Sequence record: MN850566.1 | Source of the DNA: Escherichia phage garuso | Reading direction: 5' to 3' (one strand) | DNA length: 64,000 bases | Shown here: positions 53,712 through 57,189 of the stretch, piece by piece | How positions within the stretch are numbered: the stretch's first letter is position 1 | Layout of the letters: each line of letters opens with the position of its first letter | Position numbers and translations under genes: made by a program | Notes under the pieces: model-generated | What the model was told of the DNA's origin: nothing | Seen by the model: only the letters and a program-made list of their open reading frames with translations | Database searches by the model: none

Positions 53712-53997
53712 CGTTAAACTCTCTGACGAAGAAATAGTTGACTTTGTTATTACCTACCATAAGGTCAAAGCAGGTATTCTCAAAAGGTTTGTTGTAGGCA
53801 TCATATGAAACATATGGGTCAGCTACTTGCTTAGTGCTTAACTTCTTACTTGATGGGTTTAAGAGGCCACCATACAGCTTCTTGATAGACTCTTCTACAA
53901 CAGACCAGATGATTTCGTCAGTAATTTCTTCGTACAGGTCAAGTTCACGCTCTAGTGAGAAGTCACAAATAGGGAAAATAACCTGTACTTTACTCAT
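53704..53997 (-). CDS. hypothetical protein
   Basis: 97 aa ORF. Confidence 0.45.
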   Translation of the reverse strand: MSKVQVIFPICDFSLERELDLYEEITDEIIWSVVEESIKKLYGGLLNPSSKKLSTKQVADPYVSYDAYNKPFENTCFDLMVGNNKVNYFFVREFNDE

Positions 53998-54392
53998 TAG
54001 CGAATGACCTGTGTTACCTGAATAGCTTCAGTTACTGACAAATCACCAACCGTTTCTTCTTTGACGAAGGTGAAGGTAAGTTCAACAGGCTCTTGTTCTT
54101 CCTGCTCAACCGGAATACCGTTAAGCTCATCAAAGATTGATTGAGTTGTCCAGTCTTCTCCACCATCTGGGTAGTGGATTGCGTAAAGTGGAAACTCTAA
54201 ATTATACCAAGCAAAAACAGGGCAACCATCTGCATCATCTCGACATCTGTGGAGACATGTGTTTGTACCTTCAAAATGCAAATGGAGATTACCATTCTTC
54301 TCAAATAGAAGAGCATCTTGCAGGTCTAGTTCCTCATTTTCGCTGTAACGGCTGACATCAACCTTAACATGGATATGACTGTTATTATTCAT
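53997..54392 (-). CDS. hypothetical protein
   Basis: 131 aa ORF. Confidence 0.45.
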   Translation of the reverse strand: MNNNSHIHVKVDVSRYSENEELDLQDALLFEKNGNLHLHFEGTNTCLHRCRDDADGCPVFAWYNLEFPLYAIHYPDGGEDWTTQSIFDELNGIPVEQEEQEPVELTFTFVKEETVGDLSVTEAIQVTQVIR

Positions 54393-54783: not shown

Positions 54784-54801
54784 AGTTTTCTCCTTAGAAA
54801 A

Positions 54802-54826
54802 TAAAAAAGGCTCCCGAAGGAGCCTA
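54802..54826 (-). terminator. rho-independent terminator
   Basis: Minus strand AGGCTCC-TTCG-GGAGCCT followed by TTTTTTATTTT. Confidence 0.6.
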
Positions 54827-54834
54827 TGAAGATA

Positions 54835-55299
54835 TTACTTTGGATATACACTGTCAAGATAAATGTCAGCTTCCATTCTACGTCTGTTTTTCAGGCCGTT
54901 TGAAGTGACCTTCTTACCTTTCACTGTAACCTTGTTCCACCACTGCATAGCTTCTGCACAACCTACCTTATTACCAGCATTGTGGCGCTTGATAAATGTA
55001 GAATCCTGCATAGCTGTGATGCCGATGTTGTATGTTTCACTTACAAGTGCATCAAACTCGTTCTGAGAAGTTGGAACCTTGATGGCTTTGTTCACTGCTG
55101 CAACGAACTTTTCAACATCTGCAAGAAGATACTGTTCAGCTTGTTCAGCGGTAATCTTCATACCCATCTTAACAGGCTTCCCACCAATACGAATTGTCCC
55201 ATACCCGATTGTAGGGATTCCGGCAGAGTCTTCGTAAGCCTCTAACTTCAGACCTTCGAAGAACTTAATAGCATCTAAACCTTTTCTTGAGAGTTGCAT
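54835..55299 (-). CDS. endolysin, GH24 lysozyme
   Basis: 154 aa; GLKLEAYEDSAGIPTIGYGT matches catalytic region of phage lysozymes (T4 E / lambdoid family). Confidence 0.8.
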   Translation of the reverse strand: MQLSRKGLDAIKFFEGLKLEAYEDSAGIPTIGYGTIRIGGKPVKMGMKITAEQAEQYLLADVEKFVAAVNKAIKVPTSQNEFDALVSETYNIGITAMQDSTFIKRHNAGNKVGCAEAMQWWNKVTVKGKKVTSNGLKNRRRMEADIYLDSVYPK

Positions 55300-56183
55300 T
55301 ATGCCTCCCCTGCTGGATTAACTGTAACTGTTGCTGCATTAGATGTTACAGAGCCACCTGCGCCAGTAACTACACAGGTGTAGCTTCCTGAATCAGCAGC
55401 GGTTGCACCTTCTTTGGTGTAGGTTGCAGTAGTTGCATCGAGGATGTCTTCCTCATCTTTCTTCCACTGATAACCTGTTGCACCTGTTGCCACAACATTC
55501 AACGTTAAGGTCTCACCTTCATTGATTTCTTGATTGGTTGGCTGTTGAGTGATGACAGGAAGTGCATTCACAGTCACTGTTGCTGCATCTGAGGTAACAC
55601 TTGTTCCACCCTCTCCAGATACAACACAAGTGTATGAACCAGCATCAGAAGGTGCTACTGACTGTTTTGTGTAAGTTGCAGAATTGGCACTAGGGATGTC
55701 CTCACCATCCTTCTTCCACTGATATCCAGTGGCGTTAGTTGCTAGAATGCTTAGAGTAAGTGTGCCACCCTCATTGACTGTTTGACCTGTCGGTTGCTGA
55801 GTAATTGCTGGTGGCTTAATAGCATCCTTCAACTTAGCATTCAACATTGAGAACGGCTTAACTCTTGCCAACCATTCACAGTAAATTGTGTCAACATCTT
55901 TACCATTGATGATTGCATACTGCAAATCCATGAAGAAATCAGCAGTTCTCATCTGTGCACCAACACTGTAAAGCAATTCATCACTAAATGGAACTTTGTA
56001 GTCTGGTTTGTAGTCAAACTTCTCAACTTCTGCAATATCAGCTTCAGGCCAATATGAACTATAGGTAAGTGGTAAAATAGCCTCTTGATATGTTCTAAAA
56101 TCATACCTCTTACCAGCCTTTACATTTGCAATGAAACCCTTCACAAACTCTTTGAAGTCTGGGTAAGTCTTTGCTTTAATCAT
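55299..56183 (-). CDS. protein with two tandem Ig-like domains fused to a conserved N-terminal domain
   Basis: C-terminal duplicated about 90 aa units (QQPTGQTVNEGGTLTL...GSYTCVV / QQPTNQEINEGETLTL...GSYTCVV); N-terminal 125 aa paralogous to 56180-56551. Confidence 0.55.
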   Translation of the reverse strand: MIKAKTYPDFKEFVKGFIANVKAGKRYDFRTYQEAILPLTYSSYWPEADIAEVEKFDYKPDYKVPFSDELLYSVGAQMRTADFFMDLQYAIINGKDVDTIYCEWLARVKPFSMLNAKLKDAIKPPAITQQPTGQTVNEGGTLTLSILATNATGYQWKKDGEDIPSANSATYTKQSVAPSDAGSYTCVVSGEGGTSVTSDAATVTVNALPVITQQPTNQEINEGETLTLNVVATGATGYQWKKDEEDILDATTATYTKEGATAADSGSYTCVVTGAGGSVTSNAATVTVNPAGEA

Positions 56184-56551
56184 TTCTTTTTAGCCTCTAA
56201 ATGTGCGTTTAGTCTAAAATAACCTTTGTGATGCGGAGATACATCACCAACAACAATACCTTTAACCTTATAGCCTTTACCAATTACATACTGGATATCC
56301 ATAAGGAATCTTCCAAGTCCAACAATATGGAACATTGGATATAATAGGTTCTCAGAATCTGGAATATTGATTTCAGGTTTGTAGGTACGCTGTTCGATTG
56401 TTGGTGTAATATCTTCTTCAGGCCATTTGCTGAGTCTCCATGTCAAAGGTGTTGGGATAACATCATTAAGGTTGTACCTTTCACCATTTTGCACGGAATT
56501 GATATAGGATTGTAGGAAGCAATAAAAGTCTTTTGCACTCTTAGCTTTCAT
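56180..56551 (-). CDS. hypothetical protein, paralog of N-terminal domain of 55299-56183
   Basis: MKAKSAKDFYCFLQSYINSVQNGERYNL vs MIKAKTYPDFKEFVKGFIANVKAGKRYDF and later FLMDIQYVI vs FFMDLQYAI. Confidence 0.5.
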   Translation of the reverse strand: MKAKSAKDFYCFLQSYINSVQNGERYNLNDVIPTPLTWRLSKWPEEDITPTIEQRTYKPEINIPDSENLLYPMFHIVGLGRFLMDIQYVIGKGYKVKGIVVGDVSPHHKGYFRLNAHLEAKKK

Positions 56552-56598
56552 TAAATATCCTTATAAATAGTTAAAGGGGCATCAGCCCCTATTCACAC

Positions 56599-57189
56599 TT
56601 AAGCTTTGGTCTTAAGTAGGTTCTTAAGTTTTTTAAGATTCATACTCTCATCAAACTTAAAACCAAATCCATTGACATAATCAATGAACTCGGATTTCTT
56701 ACTGAGTGACAATGCGTAGCTCATATCAAAGTTCTTACTTGTTTCTGCGTCTGGGCTAGAGTTTACATCAAATGAAATTTCTGTAGGCTCTTGCTTACTT
56801 TTTCTCATATTATCAATCAACAAACATGTATAGTTTGCTGGATAGAAGTTTACACTACCATCAACGTAGCTGTACTTATTATTATGGATAAGGTTGGAAA
56901 ATACCTTAAGGAATGTTTCTGAGTCGTGGCAAACAAGTTTGAATTGGCTGCTCTCTCCAAGCGCAACTAATGAGTACGGACTTTCACTATCAAAGTCATA
57001 ATTTAGATTCGATGCCGTCACTGTTACACGCATCAAGTTATTAGCAATAGTCTTCTGTTTAAAAGAATTTTGAACATAGTGAAGACCTCTATCACACTGA
57101 TTGACTAGCTCTTTAAGCAGGTCATTTGCATATGGCGAATTAATTGATACAGAGCCATCACTATTGTAATTAAAACTTACTGTTAACAT
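56599..57189 (-). CDS. hypothetical protein
   Basis: 196 aa ORF. Confidence 0.5.
   Translation of the reverse strand: MLTVSFNYNSDGSVSINSPYANDLLKELVNQCDRGLHYVQNSFKQKTIANNLMRVTVTASNLNYDFDSESPYSLVALGESSQFKLVCHDSETFLKVFSNLIHNNKYSYVDGSVNFYPANYTCLLIDNMRKSKQEPTEISFDVNSSPDAETSKNFDMSYALSLSKKSEFIDYVNGFGFKFDESMNLKKLKNLLKTKA

What the first reader, a model, noticed from the sequence alone, without database searches (positions are those of the whole stretch)
55299..56551. Tandem paralogs, one extended by two Ig-like domains, next to the endolysin gene
ORF 56180-56551 (123 aa) is homologous to the first 125 aa of ORF 55299-56183, which then continues into two about 90 aa tandem repeats with Ig-like sequence character (Thr/Ser-rich, conserved GSYTCVV). 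Ig-like domains in phages are usually on virion surface proteins, so finding one in a non-structural block beside the lysozyme is unexpected.
Basis: seen in the sequence. Interest (0 to 1): 0.45.

Follow-up and report, generated by a model that had tools for sequence, protein, structure and literature searches.

The report
Hoc-like capsid decoration gene plus twin
The Ig-domain gene beside the lysozyme is the already-solved Hoc-like capsid decoration protein of Felix O1-type phages, so it is a virion surface protein after all. The only open point is its conserved upstream twin, which keeps the capsid-binding domain, has no Ig domains and has no known role.

Summary

- **Source.** The window is a Felixounavirus genome, 99.8% identical to Escherichia phage bumzen.
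- **The 294-aa protein.** ORF 56183-55299 (minus strand) is the ortholog of Bas63 Hex-Dec (PDB 9NCF chain S, E 6e-248), Sf14 gp20 (9C2D) and Felix O1 gp36. It is a monomeric, Hoc-like decoration protein. [quoted passage not shown]
- **Evidence in relatives.** Orthologs were found in virions by mass spectrometry and cryo-EM. Published work had already noted that the gene lies far from the structural module. "Tail protein" is a mis-annotation.
- **The 123-aa protein.** ORF 56551-56180 is a full-length CapBD without Ig domains (38% identity, E 9e-17). Its predicted fold matches only 9NCF_S and 9C2D_S.
- **What I add on the twin.**
  - The two structure papers, searched by keyword, do not mention it.
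  - It is intact in 232 of 252 related phage records and under purifying selection (dN/dS 0.09-0.18).
  - In Felix O1 (gp37) it is transcribed late, yet it is absent from the published virion protein lists.
  - It lacks the two Arg anchors of Hex-Dec.
  - It is deleted in 19 natural isolates and fused into Hex-Dec in one.
- **Verdict.** The twin's role is unknown. Overall interest is low to moderate.

The parts
56180..56551 (-). 123-aa Ig-less paralog. It is a complete capsid-binding domain (CapBD) with no display domain, orthologous to Felix O1 gp37, bas63_0125 and Sf16_gp26. PHROG family phrog_4463, 'unknown function'.
   Evidence: searches (E 6e-12 to residues 3-117 of 9ncf_S; AF2 model pLDDT 65, pTM 0.68; Foldseek hits only 9ncf_S and 9c2d_S, TM 0.64-0.66; dN/dS 0.09-0.18; intact in 232 phage records), 88/89.
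55299..56183 (-). 294-aa Hex-Dec / gp20-type Hoc-like capsid hexamer decoration protein. GenBank annotates it as 'putative tail protein'.
   Evidence: (9ncf_S E 5.8e-248; 9c2d_S E 7.4e-165); literature.
55818..56183 (-). CapBD of Hex-Dec (aa 1-122). It retains Arg79 and Arg107, the residues that salt-bridge to major capsid protein Asp221 in Sf14.
55563..55814 (-). Ig-like (I-set) domain 1, aa 124-207.
55314..55562 (-). Ig-like (I-set) domain 2, aa 208-290. It is most similar to the last (fourth) Ig domain of Bas63 Hex-Dec.
   Evidence: (second alignment: query 125-292 against 9ncf_S 292-458).
54835..55299 (-). Endolysin (GH24 phage lysozyme). Its ATG overlaps the Hex-Dec stop codon (TAATG).
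56180..56183 (-). ATGA overlap: the stop codon of the paralog overlaps the start codon of Hex-Dec. This arrangement is typical of translationally coupled genes; coupling itself was not tested.
   Evidence: read directly from the sequence.
56565..56590 (-). GC-rich hairpin (AGGGGC-TGAT-GCCCCT) followed by a T-rich tail, between the upstream 196-aa ORF and the paralog. The same sequence is listed as a rho-independent terminator in Felix O1.
   Evidence: sequence; PMC3185647 Table 2, 'ggggctgatgcccctttaactatttat'.
54798..54825 (-). Intrinsic terminator-like hairpin plus T-run directly after the endolysin gene. It closes the three-gene unit.

Best explanation
**Shown.** The 294-aa ORF is the Felixounavirus hexamer decoration protein, called Hex-Dec in Bas63, gp20 in Sf14 and gp36 in Felix O1.

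**From the two cryo-EM papers.** Its N-terminal 118-122 residues form a small capsid-binding domain. That domain sits as a monomer in the centre of the 60 pentamer-adjacent hexamers of the T=9 capsid. It is anchored partly by Arg79 and Arg107 to Asp221 of the major capsid protein. The C-terminal I-set Ig domains (two here, 1-4 in relatives) project outward as a flexible fibre, as in T4 Hoc.

**Inferred by analogy with Hoc.** The fibre mediates weak adhesion to surfaces, mucus or cells. One genetic screen suggests it is dispensable on most hosts.

**Gene arrangement.** The gene lies with the endolysin in a short unit bounded by two terminator-like hairpins, apart from the structural module.

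**The 123-aa ORF (shown).** It is an ancient tandem duplicate of the capsid-binding domain alone.

**Its role (inferred).** It is a functional late protein that keeps the fold but has diverged on the surface that Hex-Dec uses to grip the capsid. My best guess, at about 35-40%, is that it still binds capsid-protein hexamers without displaying anything, either transiently during head assembly or at low copy number. Otherwise it has taken on an unrelated role.
For: **Identity of Hex-Dec**
- full-length matches to 9ncf_S and 9c2d_S.
- 99.8% DNA identity to phage bumzen, and 249 related records.
- cryo-EM descriptions, the Arg79/Arg107 to Asp221 contacts, and 1-4 Ig domains.
- Felix O1 gp36 in the virion proteome.
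- R79 and R107 are present in all 10 aligned Hex-Dec rows, the window's included.
- Ig fold.

**Operon anatomy**
-, plus Felix O1 Table 2.

**The paralog**
- Homology.
- Fold.
- Purifying selection. dN/dS is 0.09-0.18, against 0.04-0.05 for the CapBD of Hex-Dec.
- Conservation: intact in 232 of 252 records.
- Age: the paralog, Hex-Dec, lysozyme order is kept in a divergent 87-kb metagenomic relative. Paralogs form a clade with 100% bootstrap that includes that relative, so the duplication predates that split.
- Timing: genes 36 and 37 of Felix O1 are both maximally transcribed late, at 60 min, together with morphogenesis genes (PMC3185647 Table 3).
- Divergence at the anchors: all 19 paralogs have Gly at the R79 column and 18 of 19 have Gln or His at the R107 column. 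Thirty columns are fixed differently in the two families.
Against: **Against capsid binding by the paralog**
- Felix O1 gp37 is not among the 17 virion proteins reported, although a 9.7-kDa protein was detected.
- Bas63 encodes the paralog as bas63_0125, yet the cryo-EM study reports no density on the remaining hexamers and does not list it among its virion gene products.
- The two Arg anchors are lost.

**Against an important role**
- Nineteen natural isolates carry an internally deleted remnant.

**Limits on the Hex-Dec part**
- No capsid gene lies in this window.
- Binding was not tested for this particular phage.
- The adhesive role of the Ig fibre is an analogy with Hoc plus one preprint observation: Bas63 gp124 is more needed on E. 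coli S17-1 than on three other hosts.
Confidence: 0.85

Rival explanations
1. The Ig-domain protein is a non-structural, intracellular or lysis-associated protein, as its position beside the endolysin suggested to the first reader.
For: The gene sits in a block of non-structural and unknown genes. Its stop codon overlaps the endolysin start codon.
Against: Orthologs are built into capsid models 9NCF and 9C2D. They were also detected in purified virions by mass spectrometry. The gene is transcribed late, with the morphogenesis genes, whereas the lysin peaks earlier at 25 min.
Confidence: 0.02
2. It is a tail protein, as annotated in GenBank and PHROG phrog_3995, and originally as 'HK97 major tail subunit' in Felix O1.
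For: Annotations. PHROG 'major tail protein' families match it.
Against: The tail-family matches cover only the Ig region, residues about 96-208. Ig domains are shared promiscuously among tail, head and fibre proteins. Cryo-EM places the protein on capsid hexamers, and the Bas63 authors state explicitly that 'tail protein' is a mis-annotation.
Confidence: 0.02
3. The 123-aa paralog caps the 20 hexamers on the icosahedral three-fold axes, which Hex-Dec cannot bind. The two paralogs would then divide the two hexamer classes of the T=9 shell between them.
For: It has a complete CapBD fold and is expressed late. The Sf14 paper attributes Hex-Dec's exclusion from three-fold hexamers to displaced Asp221 side chains facing Arg79 and Arg107. 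Those are exactly the positions changed and then fixed in the paralog.
Against: Both cryo-EM studies report no density at those hexamers. The paralog is absent from the Felix O1 virion list. Nineteen isolates do without it.
Confidence: 0.12
4. The paralog is a blank competitor for the same 60 sites and tunes how many Ig fibres a capsid carries.
For: It has the same fold, sits in the same overlapping gene unit immediately upstream of Hex-Dec, and has the same late timing.
Against: The Hex-Dec domain was resolved with 'strong local density' and side-chain detail at these sites, so Hex-Dec predominates there. The paralog has lost both anchoring arginines.
Confidence: 0.1
5. The paralog no longer binds capsids. 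It has a new, non-virion function, or acts on Hex-Dec itself, for example as a folding or assembly partner.
For: It is not reported in virions. It evolves 2-3 times faster at non-synonymous sites than the Hex-Dec domain yet remains constrained. Thirty positions are fixed differently between the two families.
Against: There is no positive evidence for any other partner. The conserved core and the overall fold say nothing either way.
Confidence: 0.4
6. The paralog is a decaying, functionless duplicate.
For: It is lost by internal deletion in 19 records and merged into Hex-Dec in one.
Against: It is an intact 122-124-aa reading frame in 232 records from two genera and in a distant metagenomic lineage. 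dN/dS is 0.09-0.18 at dS up to about 1. It has its own ribosome-binding site and is transcribed late.
Confidence: 0.05

Closest known systems
Bas63 Hex-Dec (bas63_0124; PDB 9NCF chain S) and Sf14 gp20 (PDB 9C2D/9C3A chain S); Felix O1 gp36
   Same: Orthologs of the window's 294-aa protein. The N-terminal capsid-binding domain is the same (98% identical to the closest relatives), the Arg79/Arg107 anchors are the same, the Ig domains are I-set type, and the gene order (paralog, Hex-Dec, endolysin) is the same.
   Different: Only the Ig copy number differs: two here, four in Bas63, three in Sf14, one in many relatives. The window form corresponds to Bas63's first and last Ig domains.
[quoted passage not shown]
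   Same: It works alike: a dispensable monomer at hexamer centres with a string of Ig-like domains pointing outward. PHROG 'Hoc-like head decoration' families match the Ig region.
   Different: The domain order is reversed, since Hoc binds the capsid through its C terminus. According to the Bas63 authors, the capsid-binding domain is larger, topologically distinct, pseudo-two-fold symmetric and shares minimal sequence. In my searches the Hoc-like families matched only residues about 120-292. This is an analog, not a family member. I know of no Ig-less twin gene described for T4 hoc (from my own knowledge, not tested).
T5 pb10 decoration protein (PDB 5LXK, 8ZVI)
   Same: The capsid-binding domain is N-terminal, followed by a C-terminal Ig-like domain. 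The Ig domain matches at E about 2e-12.
   Different: The match is confined to the Ig domain (query 129-207). There is no detectable similarity in the capsid-binding part.
Other Ounavirinae CapBD proteins: Erwinia phage phiEa104 BIG2-domain protein and metagenomic relatives P0101-P0105
   Same: They share the N-terminal CapBD (profile E-values 1e-10 to 1e-4; Foldseek). In the L007-L009 lineage the gene again sits next to the lysozyme, with the DUF5681 and DUF2828 genes diverging upstream.
   Different: The display module is swapped: Big_2, a single Ig domain, or a Lys/Ser-rich tail. Only one CapBD gene was found in those loci, with no Ig-less twin.

Membership tests
Ounavirinae Hex-Dec / gp20 hexamer decoration protein (tested on the 294-aa ORF) | N-terminal capsid-binding domain homologous to the solved chains 9NCF_S and 9C2D_S | tested here: met
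   phmmer E 5.8e-248 and 7.4e-165, aligned over residues 1-290.
Ounavirinae Hex-Dec / gp20 hexamer decoration protein (tested on the 294-aa ORF) | One to four C-terminal Ig-like domains following the CapBD | tested here: met
   Two I-set/Ig_3 domains. AF2 pLDDT 90-97 in this region. Foldseek match to Robo2 Ig2-3, E 3.5e-15.
Ounavirinae Hex-Dec / gp20 hexamer decoration protein (tested on the 294-aa ORF) | Arg79 and Arg107, the residues that contact major capsid protein Asp221 in Sf14 | tested here: met
   Both residues are present in the window protein and in all 10 aligned Hex-Dec sequences.
Ounavirinae Hex-Dec / gp20 hexamer decoration protein (tested on the 294-aa ORF) | Physically bound at the centre of pentamer-adjacent hexamers of the virion | not testable with these tools
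   Shown for orthologs by cryo-EM and virion mass spectrometry. Inferred for this phage from the high sequence identity.
Hex-Dec CapBD family (tested on the 123-aa ORF) | Sequence homology across the whole capsid-binding domain | tested here: met
   BLASTP E 9e-17. E 6e-12 to residues 3-117 of 9ncf_S. 26 invariant columns. Cross-hit to phrog_3995 at 4e-15.
Hex-Dec CapBD family (tested on the 123-aa ORF) | Same three-dimensional fold as the solved CapBD | tested here: met
   The AF2 model is of moderate quality (pLDDT 65, pTM 0.68). Its only significant PDB matches are 9ncf_S and 9c2d_S, TM 0.64-0.66, probability 1.00.
Hex-Dec CapBD family (tested on the 123-aa ORF) | Conserved Arg79/Arg107 capsid anchors | tested here: not met
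   Gly in 19 of 19 paralogs at the R79 column. Gln or His in 18 of 19 at the R107 column.
Hex-Dec CapBD family (tested on the 123-aa ORF) | Carries a displayed C-terminal module (Ig, Big_2 or other) | tested here: not met
   The protein ends at the position where the Ig linker begins in Hex-Dec.
Hex-Dec CapBD family (tested on the 123-aa ORF) | Present in the virion | not testable with these tools
   The literature is negative so far. Felix O1 gp37 is not in the virion list and the paralog is not among the Bas63 cryo-EM gene products.
T4 Hoc family | Homologous capsid-binding domain, located at the C terminus | tested here: not met
   Hoc-like PHROG families match only the Ig region, residues 120-292. 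The domain order is reversed and the fold differs, according to the Bas63 authors.
Phage tail protein (database annotation) | A tail-specific domain outside the promiscuous Ig repeats | tested here: not met
   All tail-family matches are confined to the Ig repeats. The N-terminal domain matches only capsid-bound chains.

The most novel reading that the evidence does not exclude
The Ig-less twin is a second, so far unseen capsid-associated protein. In this reading it is a paralogous plug specialised for the hexamer class that Hex-Dec cannot occupy: the 20 three-fold hexamers, or hexamers of the unexpanded procapsid. A T=9 phage would then use a duplicated binding domain to tell its two hexamer environments apart. 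The plug could have been missed because icosahedral averaging blurs a 14-kDa monomer sitting on a three-fold axis, and because stringent proteomic cut-offs exclude low-copy proteins.
Probability: 0.12. Interest if true: 0.6.

Novelty: new member of a known kind. Interest (0 to 1): 0.3.

Why it matters
**The main feature.** It matters little, because it is a textbook case of a known protein. The useful outcome is a corrected annotation, capsid decoration rather than tail. It also shows that the rule 'phage Ig domains sit on virion surfaces' holds here too.

**The twin gene.** It is a small but real loose end.
- It is conserved and late-expressed, and it copies only the capsid-docking module.
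- Hoc-like proteins are used as display platforms, so a natural competitor or partner for the docking site would be practically relevant.
- It could show how a monomer distinguishes nearly identical hexamers.
- The natural deletion and fusion alleles give ready-made material for testing this.

Tried and rejected
- **Tandem Repeats Finder on the DNA.** It did not detect the 252-nt Ig repeat. The repeats are 70% identical as protein but too diverged as DNA, so this says nothing against them.
- **The repeat finder.** One call failed because I gave the minus strand. I did not repeat it.
- **Net charge and pI.** I compared paralog and Hex-Dec domains across five lineages and found no consistent difference. 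I dropped this as a functional clue.
- **Virion proteomics for the paralog.**
  - The VpaE1 list of 22 proteins is in a figure that is not held.
  - The wV8 paper covers only the tail fibre.
  - The Sf14 supplement has no protein table.
  - The Bas63 and PhageMaP supplements are not held.
  - Only the Felix O1 table was usable.
- **PhageMaP main text.** It gives no fitness value for Bas63 gene 125.
- **Neighbour-joining bootstrap.** Support for the Hex-Dec clade was low (30%), and the single-copy outgroups are not resolved. Only the monophyly of the paralog clade (100%) is used.
- **Accession guess.** My guess for Bas63 (MZ501111) turned out to be Bas51. The right record, MZ501086, was found by a protein search.
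- **Lysis-related role for the pair.** I considered this because of the adjacency to the endolysin and rejected it. The linkage reflects a shared short transcription unit. Genes 36 and 37 peak late, while the lysin peaks at 25 min.
Full report
**1. What is there**

On the minus strand three ORFs abut:
- a 123-aa ORF at 56551-56180;
- a 294-aa ORF at 56183-55299;
- a 154-aa ORF at 55299-54835.

The first stop codon overlaps the second start codon (ATGA). The second stop overlaps the third start (TAATG). Each gene has a Shine-Dalgarno-like sequence.

A GC-rich hairpin (AGGGGC-TGAT-GCCCCT) precedes the trio. A canonical hairpin plus T-run at 54825-54808 follows it. The third ORF is a GH24 phage lysozyme (PF00959, 6.7e-41).

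**2.

- **Paralogy.** The 123-aa protein aligns with the first 100 residues of the 294-aa protein at 38% identity, E = 9e-17. In an alignment of 19 homologs of the short protein and 10 of the long one, 26 columns are invariant, spread over residues 8-118. The short protein ends exactly where the Ig linker of the long one begins.
- **Ig repeats.** The C-terminal part of the long protein is two 84-aa repeats, 70% identical to each other (E = 1e-38). Pfam calls them Ig_3, Ig_2 and I-set, with E-values from 3.5e-23 to 3.4e-16.
- **Fold.** An AlphaFold2 model has pLDDT 90-97 over this region. Its best structural match is the tandem Ig domains 2-3 of Robo2, E = 3.5e-15.

Neither is met.

**3. Where the window comes from**

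The region is 99.8% identical to Escherichia phage bumzen, and 249 Felix O1-type phage records match it. In these records the long ORF is usually annotated 'putative tail protein' and the short one 'hypothetical protein'.

The rest of the window encodes thymidylate synthase, DNA ligase, primase-helicase, aerobic and anaerobic ribonucleotide reductases, a NAMPT-type enzyme and many genes of unknown function. So the gene pair does lie outside the structural module.

**4. What the long protein is**

- **Solved relatives.** A sequence search of the PDB gives two near-full-length matches. One is 9NCF chain S, 'Immunoglobulin-like domain protein' of phage Bas63 (E 5.8e-248). The other is 9C2D/9C3A chain S of Shigella phage Sf14 (E 7.4e-165).
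- **Published description** (PMC12609058 and PMC11821841). The protein is called Hex-Dec or gp20.
  - It is a monomer whose N-terminal capsid-binding domain sits in the centre of the pentamer-adjacent hexamers of a T=9 capsid.
  - It is anchored partly by Arg79 and Arg107 to Asp221 of the capsid protein.
  - It carries 1-4 unresolved Ig-like domains, like T4 Hoc but with reversed domain order and an unrelated binding domain.
- **Anchors here.** The window protein keeps both arginines.
- **Virion detection.** Sf14 gp20 was detected in virions by mass spectrometry. The Felix O1 ortholog gp36 (31.6 kDa) was detected at 44% coverage as long ago as 2010. [quoted passage not shown]
- **Annotation.** The Bas63 authors say explicitly that 'tail protein' is a mis-annotation.
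- **Essentiality.** A genome-wide knockout preprint reports that Bas63 gp124 was more needed on E. coli S17-1 than on the three other hosts tested (PMC11482910).

This is a virion surface protein whose gene simply lies elsewhere.

**5. Ig copy number**

The window has two Ig domains. Relatives have one (many 210-aa forms), three (377 aa; Sf14, 372 aa) or four (Bas63, 460 aa).

The window's second Ig domain aligns best with the last domain of Bas63. That fits in-frame gain or loss of internal repeats. This variation is already described.

**6. The short protein: what seems not to have been described**

- **Literature.** Neither structure paper contains the words 'paralog' or 'duplicat'. Searches for Hex-Dec or Hoc-like Felixounavirus papers found nothing else.
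- **Fold.** The short protein is a full CapBD. Its AlphaFold2 model is of moderate confidence (pLDDT 65, pTM 0.68). It matches only 9ncf_S and 9c2d_S in the PDB (TM 0.64-0.66, probability 1.00). Among viral models it matches its own orthologs, Hex-Dec proteins and a BIG2-domain protein of Erwinia phage phiEa104.
- **Family size.** A profile search over 1.84 billion representative proteins found only 12 representatives.

**7. Evolution of the pair**

- **Prevalence.** An intact 122-124-aa paralog is present in 232 of 252 matching phage records, covering Felixounavirus and Mooglevirus. That includes Bas63 (bas63_0125, 85% identical) and the Sf14 species (Sf16_gp26).
- **A divergent relative keeps the trio.** An 87-kb metagenomic relative has the same order of paralog, Hex-Dec and lysozyme.
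- **Age of the duplication.** Paralogs form a clade with 100% bootstrap that includes the divergent relative. The duplication therefore predates that split.
- **More distant relatives.** They have a single CapBD gene carrying a different display module: Big_2, one Ig domain, or a Lys/Ser-rich tail. In one lineage that gene again sits next to the lysozyme.
- **Selection.** Pairwise dN/dS for the paralog is 0.09-0.18. It is 0.04-0.05 for the Hex-Dec CapBD and 0.04-0.10 for the lysin. Non-synonymous divergence is 2-3 times higher in the paralog. It is a constrained but faster-evolving gene.

**8. Clues to the paralog's function**

For some role in head morphogenesis:
- Felix O1 RT-PCR data place genes 36 and 37 together among the genes maximally expressed late, at 60 min. 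The portal, sheath-region and fibre genes are in the same class. The lysin (35) and gene 38 peak at 25 min.
- The hairpin upstream of the paralog is listed as a terminator in the same paper.

Against stable capsid binding:
- gp37 is not among the 17 Felix O1 virion proteins.
- Bas63 cryo-EM found no density on the other hexamers.
- The anchoring arginines are replaced by Gly in 19 of 19 paralogs and by Gln or His in 18 of 19. Thirty columns are fixed differently in the two families.

Natural variants:
- Nineteen records from several lineages carry only a roughly 190-nt internally deleted remnant. They include fKMPT1, fBSPA4, REP5-12, Tf, SP116, mio, Z31, P54 and two CECAV phages. The gene is therefore dispensable for propagation.
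- One phage, SP3_SHan-2021, has a single chimeric gene. Paralog residues 1-49 are joined at the shared WPE-DI motif to the rest of Hex-Dec. This allele is unique in the collection. It looks like unequal recombination between the twins, and it shows that the N-terminal third is interchangeable at least to the extent of giving a viable phage.

**9. Most likely mechanism**

- **Shown by orthology and published structures.** The long protein docks as a monomer on 60 hexamers and displays Ig domains.
- **Inferred by analogy.** The Ig fibre mediates weak adhesion.
- **The short protein.** I rank the possibilities as follows:
  - a non-virion or Hex-Dec-directed role, about 0.4;
  - a blank competitor for Hex-Dec sites, about 0.1;
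  - a transient procapsid binder, which makes up most of the remaining probability;
  - a decaying duplicate, about 0.05.

  Taken together, 'still binds capsid hexamers in some way' is about 35-40%. None of this is demonstrated.

**10. Comparison and novelty**

- **The long protein.** It is a member of the Hex-Dec/gp20 family, and every defining feature I could test is met. It is a functional analog of T4 Hoc and T5 pb10, not a member of those families. Only the Ig domains are similar.
- **The short protein.** It is an uncharacterised, Ig-less member of the same CapBD family. It fails two family features: the Arg anchors and a display module.

Overall the finding is already explained, with one modest undescribed detail. 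I score interest at 0.3.

Noticed in passing
window 58262-59677 (+) and 59843-63383 (+): A 471-aa DUF2828/DUF7788 protein, which a preprint describes as Ro60-like, is followed directly by an array of 18 tRNA genes. The same preprint reports that the Bas63 homolog gp130 counters the 'ppl' defence system, and it speculates that some of these 'tRNAs' are Y-RNA-like partners.
   Followed up: partly
L013 2501-3379 (Salmonella phage SP3_SHan-2021, MW296865): A single chimeric gene replaces the pair. Residues 1-49 come from the Ig-less paralog and are fused at the WPE-DI motif to Hex-Dec. This looks like unequal recombination between the tandem paralogs and is unique among the phage records.
   Followed up: yes
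L012 2306-2497 (Escherichia phage fKMPT1) and 18 other records: The paralog is reduced to a roughly 190-nt internally deleted remnant in 19 records, which differ from one another by up to about 7% in this stretch. The allele is therefore an established natural one, not a one-off.
   Followed up: yes
L011 2498-3070 (Shigella phage Z31, MN655999): Hex-Dec is split into a 134-aa CapBD-only ORF and a 55-aa fragment, and the paralog is also deleted. This could be a real truncation or a sequencing frameshift.
   Followed up: partly
GU169904.1 143190-143558 ('Staphylococcus phage SA1', 147 kb): This record carries a copy of the 123-aa paralog that is 100% identical, next to a 'putative tail protein'. 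The record appears to contain Felixounavirus DNA, so it may be a chimeric or contaminated assembly.
   Followed up: no
L007 6001-6462; L004 869-1489; L005 2179-2868: Distant relatives carry the same capsid-binding domain fused to other display modules: a Lys/Ser-rich disordered tail, a Big_2 domain, or a single Ig domain. In the L007 lineage the gene is again next to the lysozyme, with the DUF5681 and DUF2828 genes diverging upstream.
   Followed up: partly
window 53997-54392 (-): The orthologous gene in phage bumzen (bumzen_116) is annotated 'D-alanyl-D-alanine carboxypeptidase'. The protein matches only a PHROG family of unknown function, so the name is probably a propagated annotation.
   Followed up: no
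window 56599-57189 (-): A conserved 196-aa ORF of unknown function (phrog_4034) sits upstream of the trio in every relative examined. Its counterpart in the distant L007 lineage has a faint Phage_Inh_N hit.
   Followed up: no
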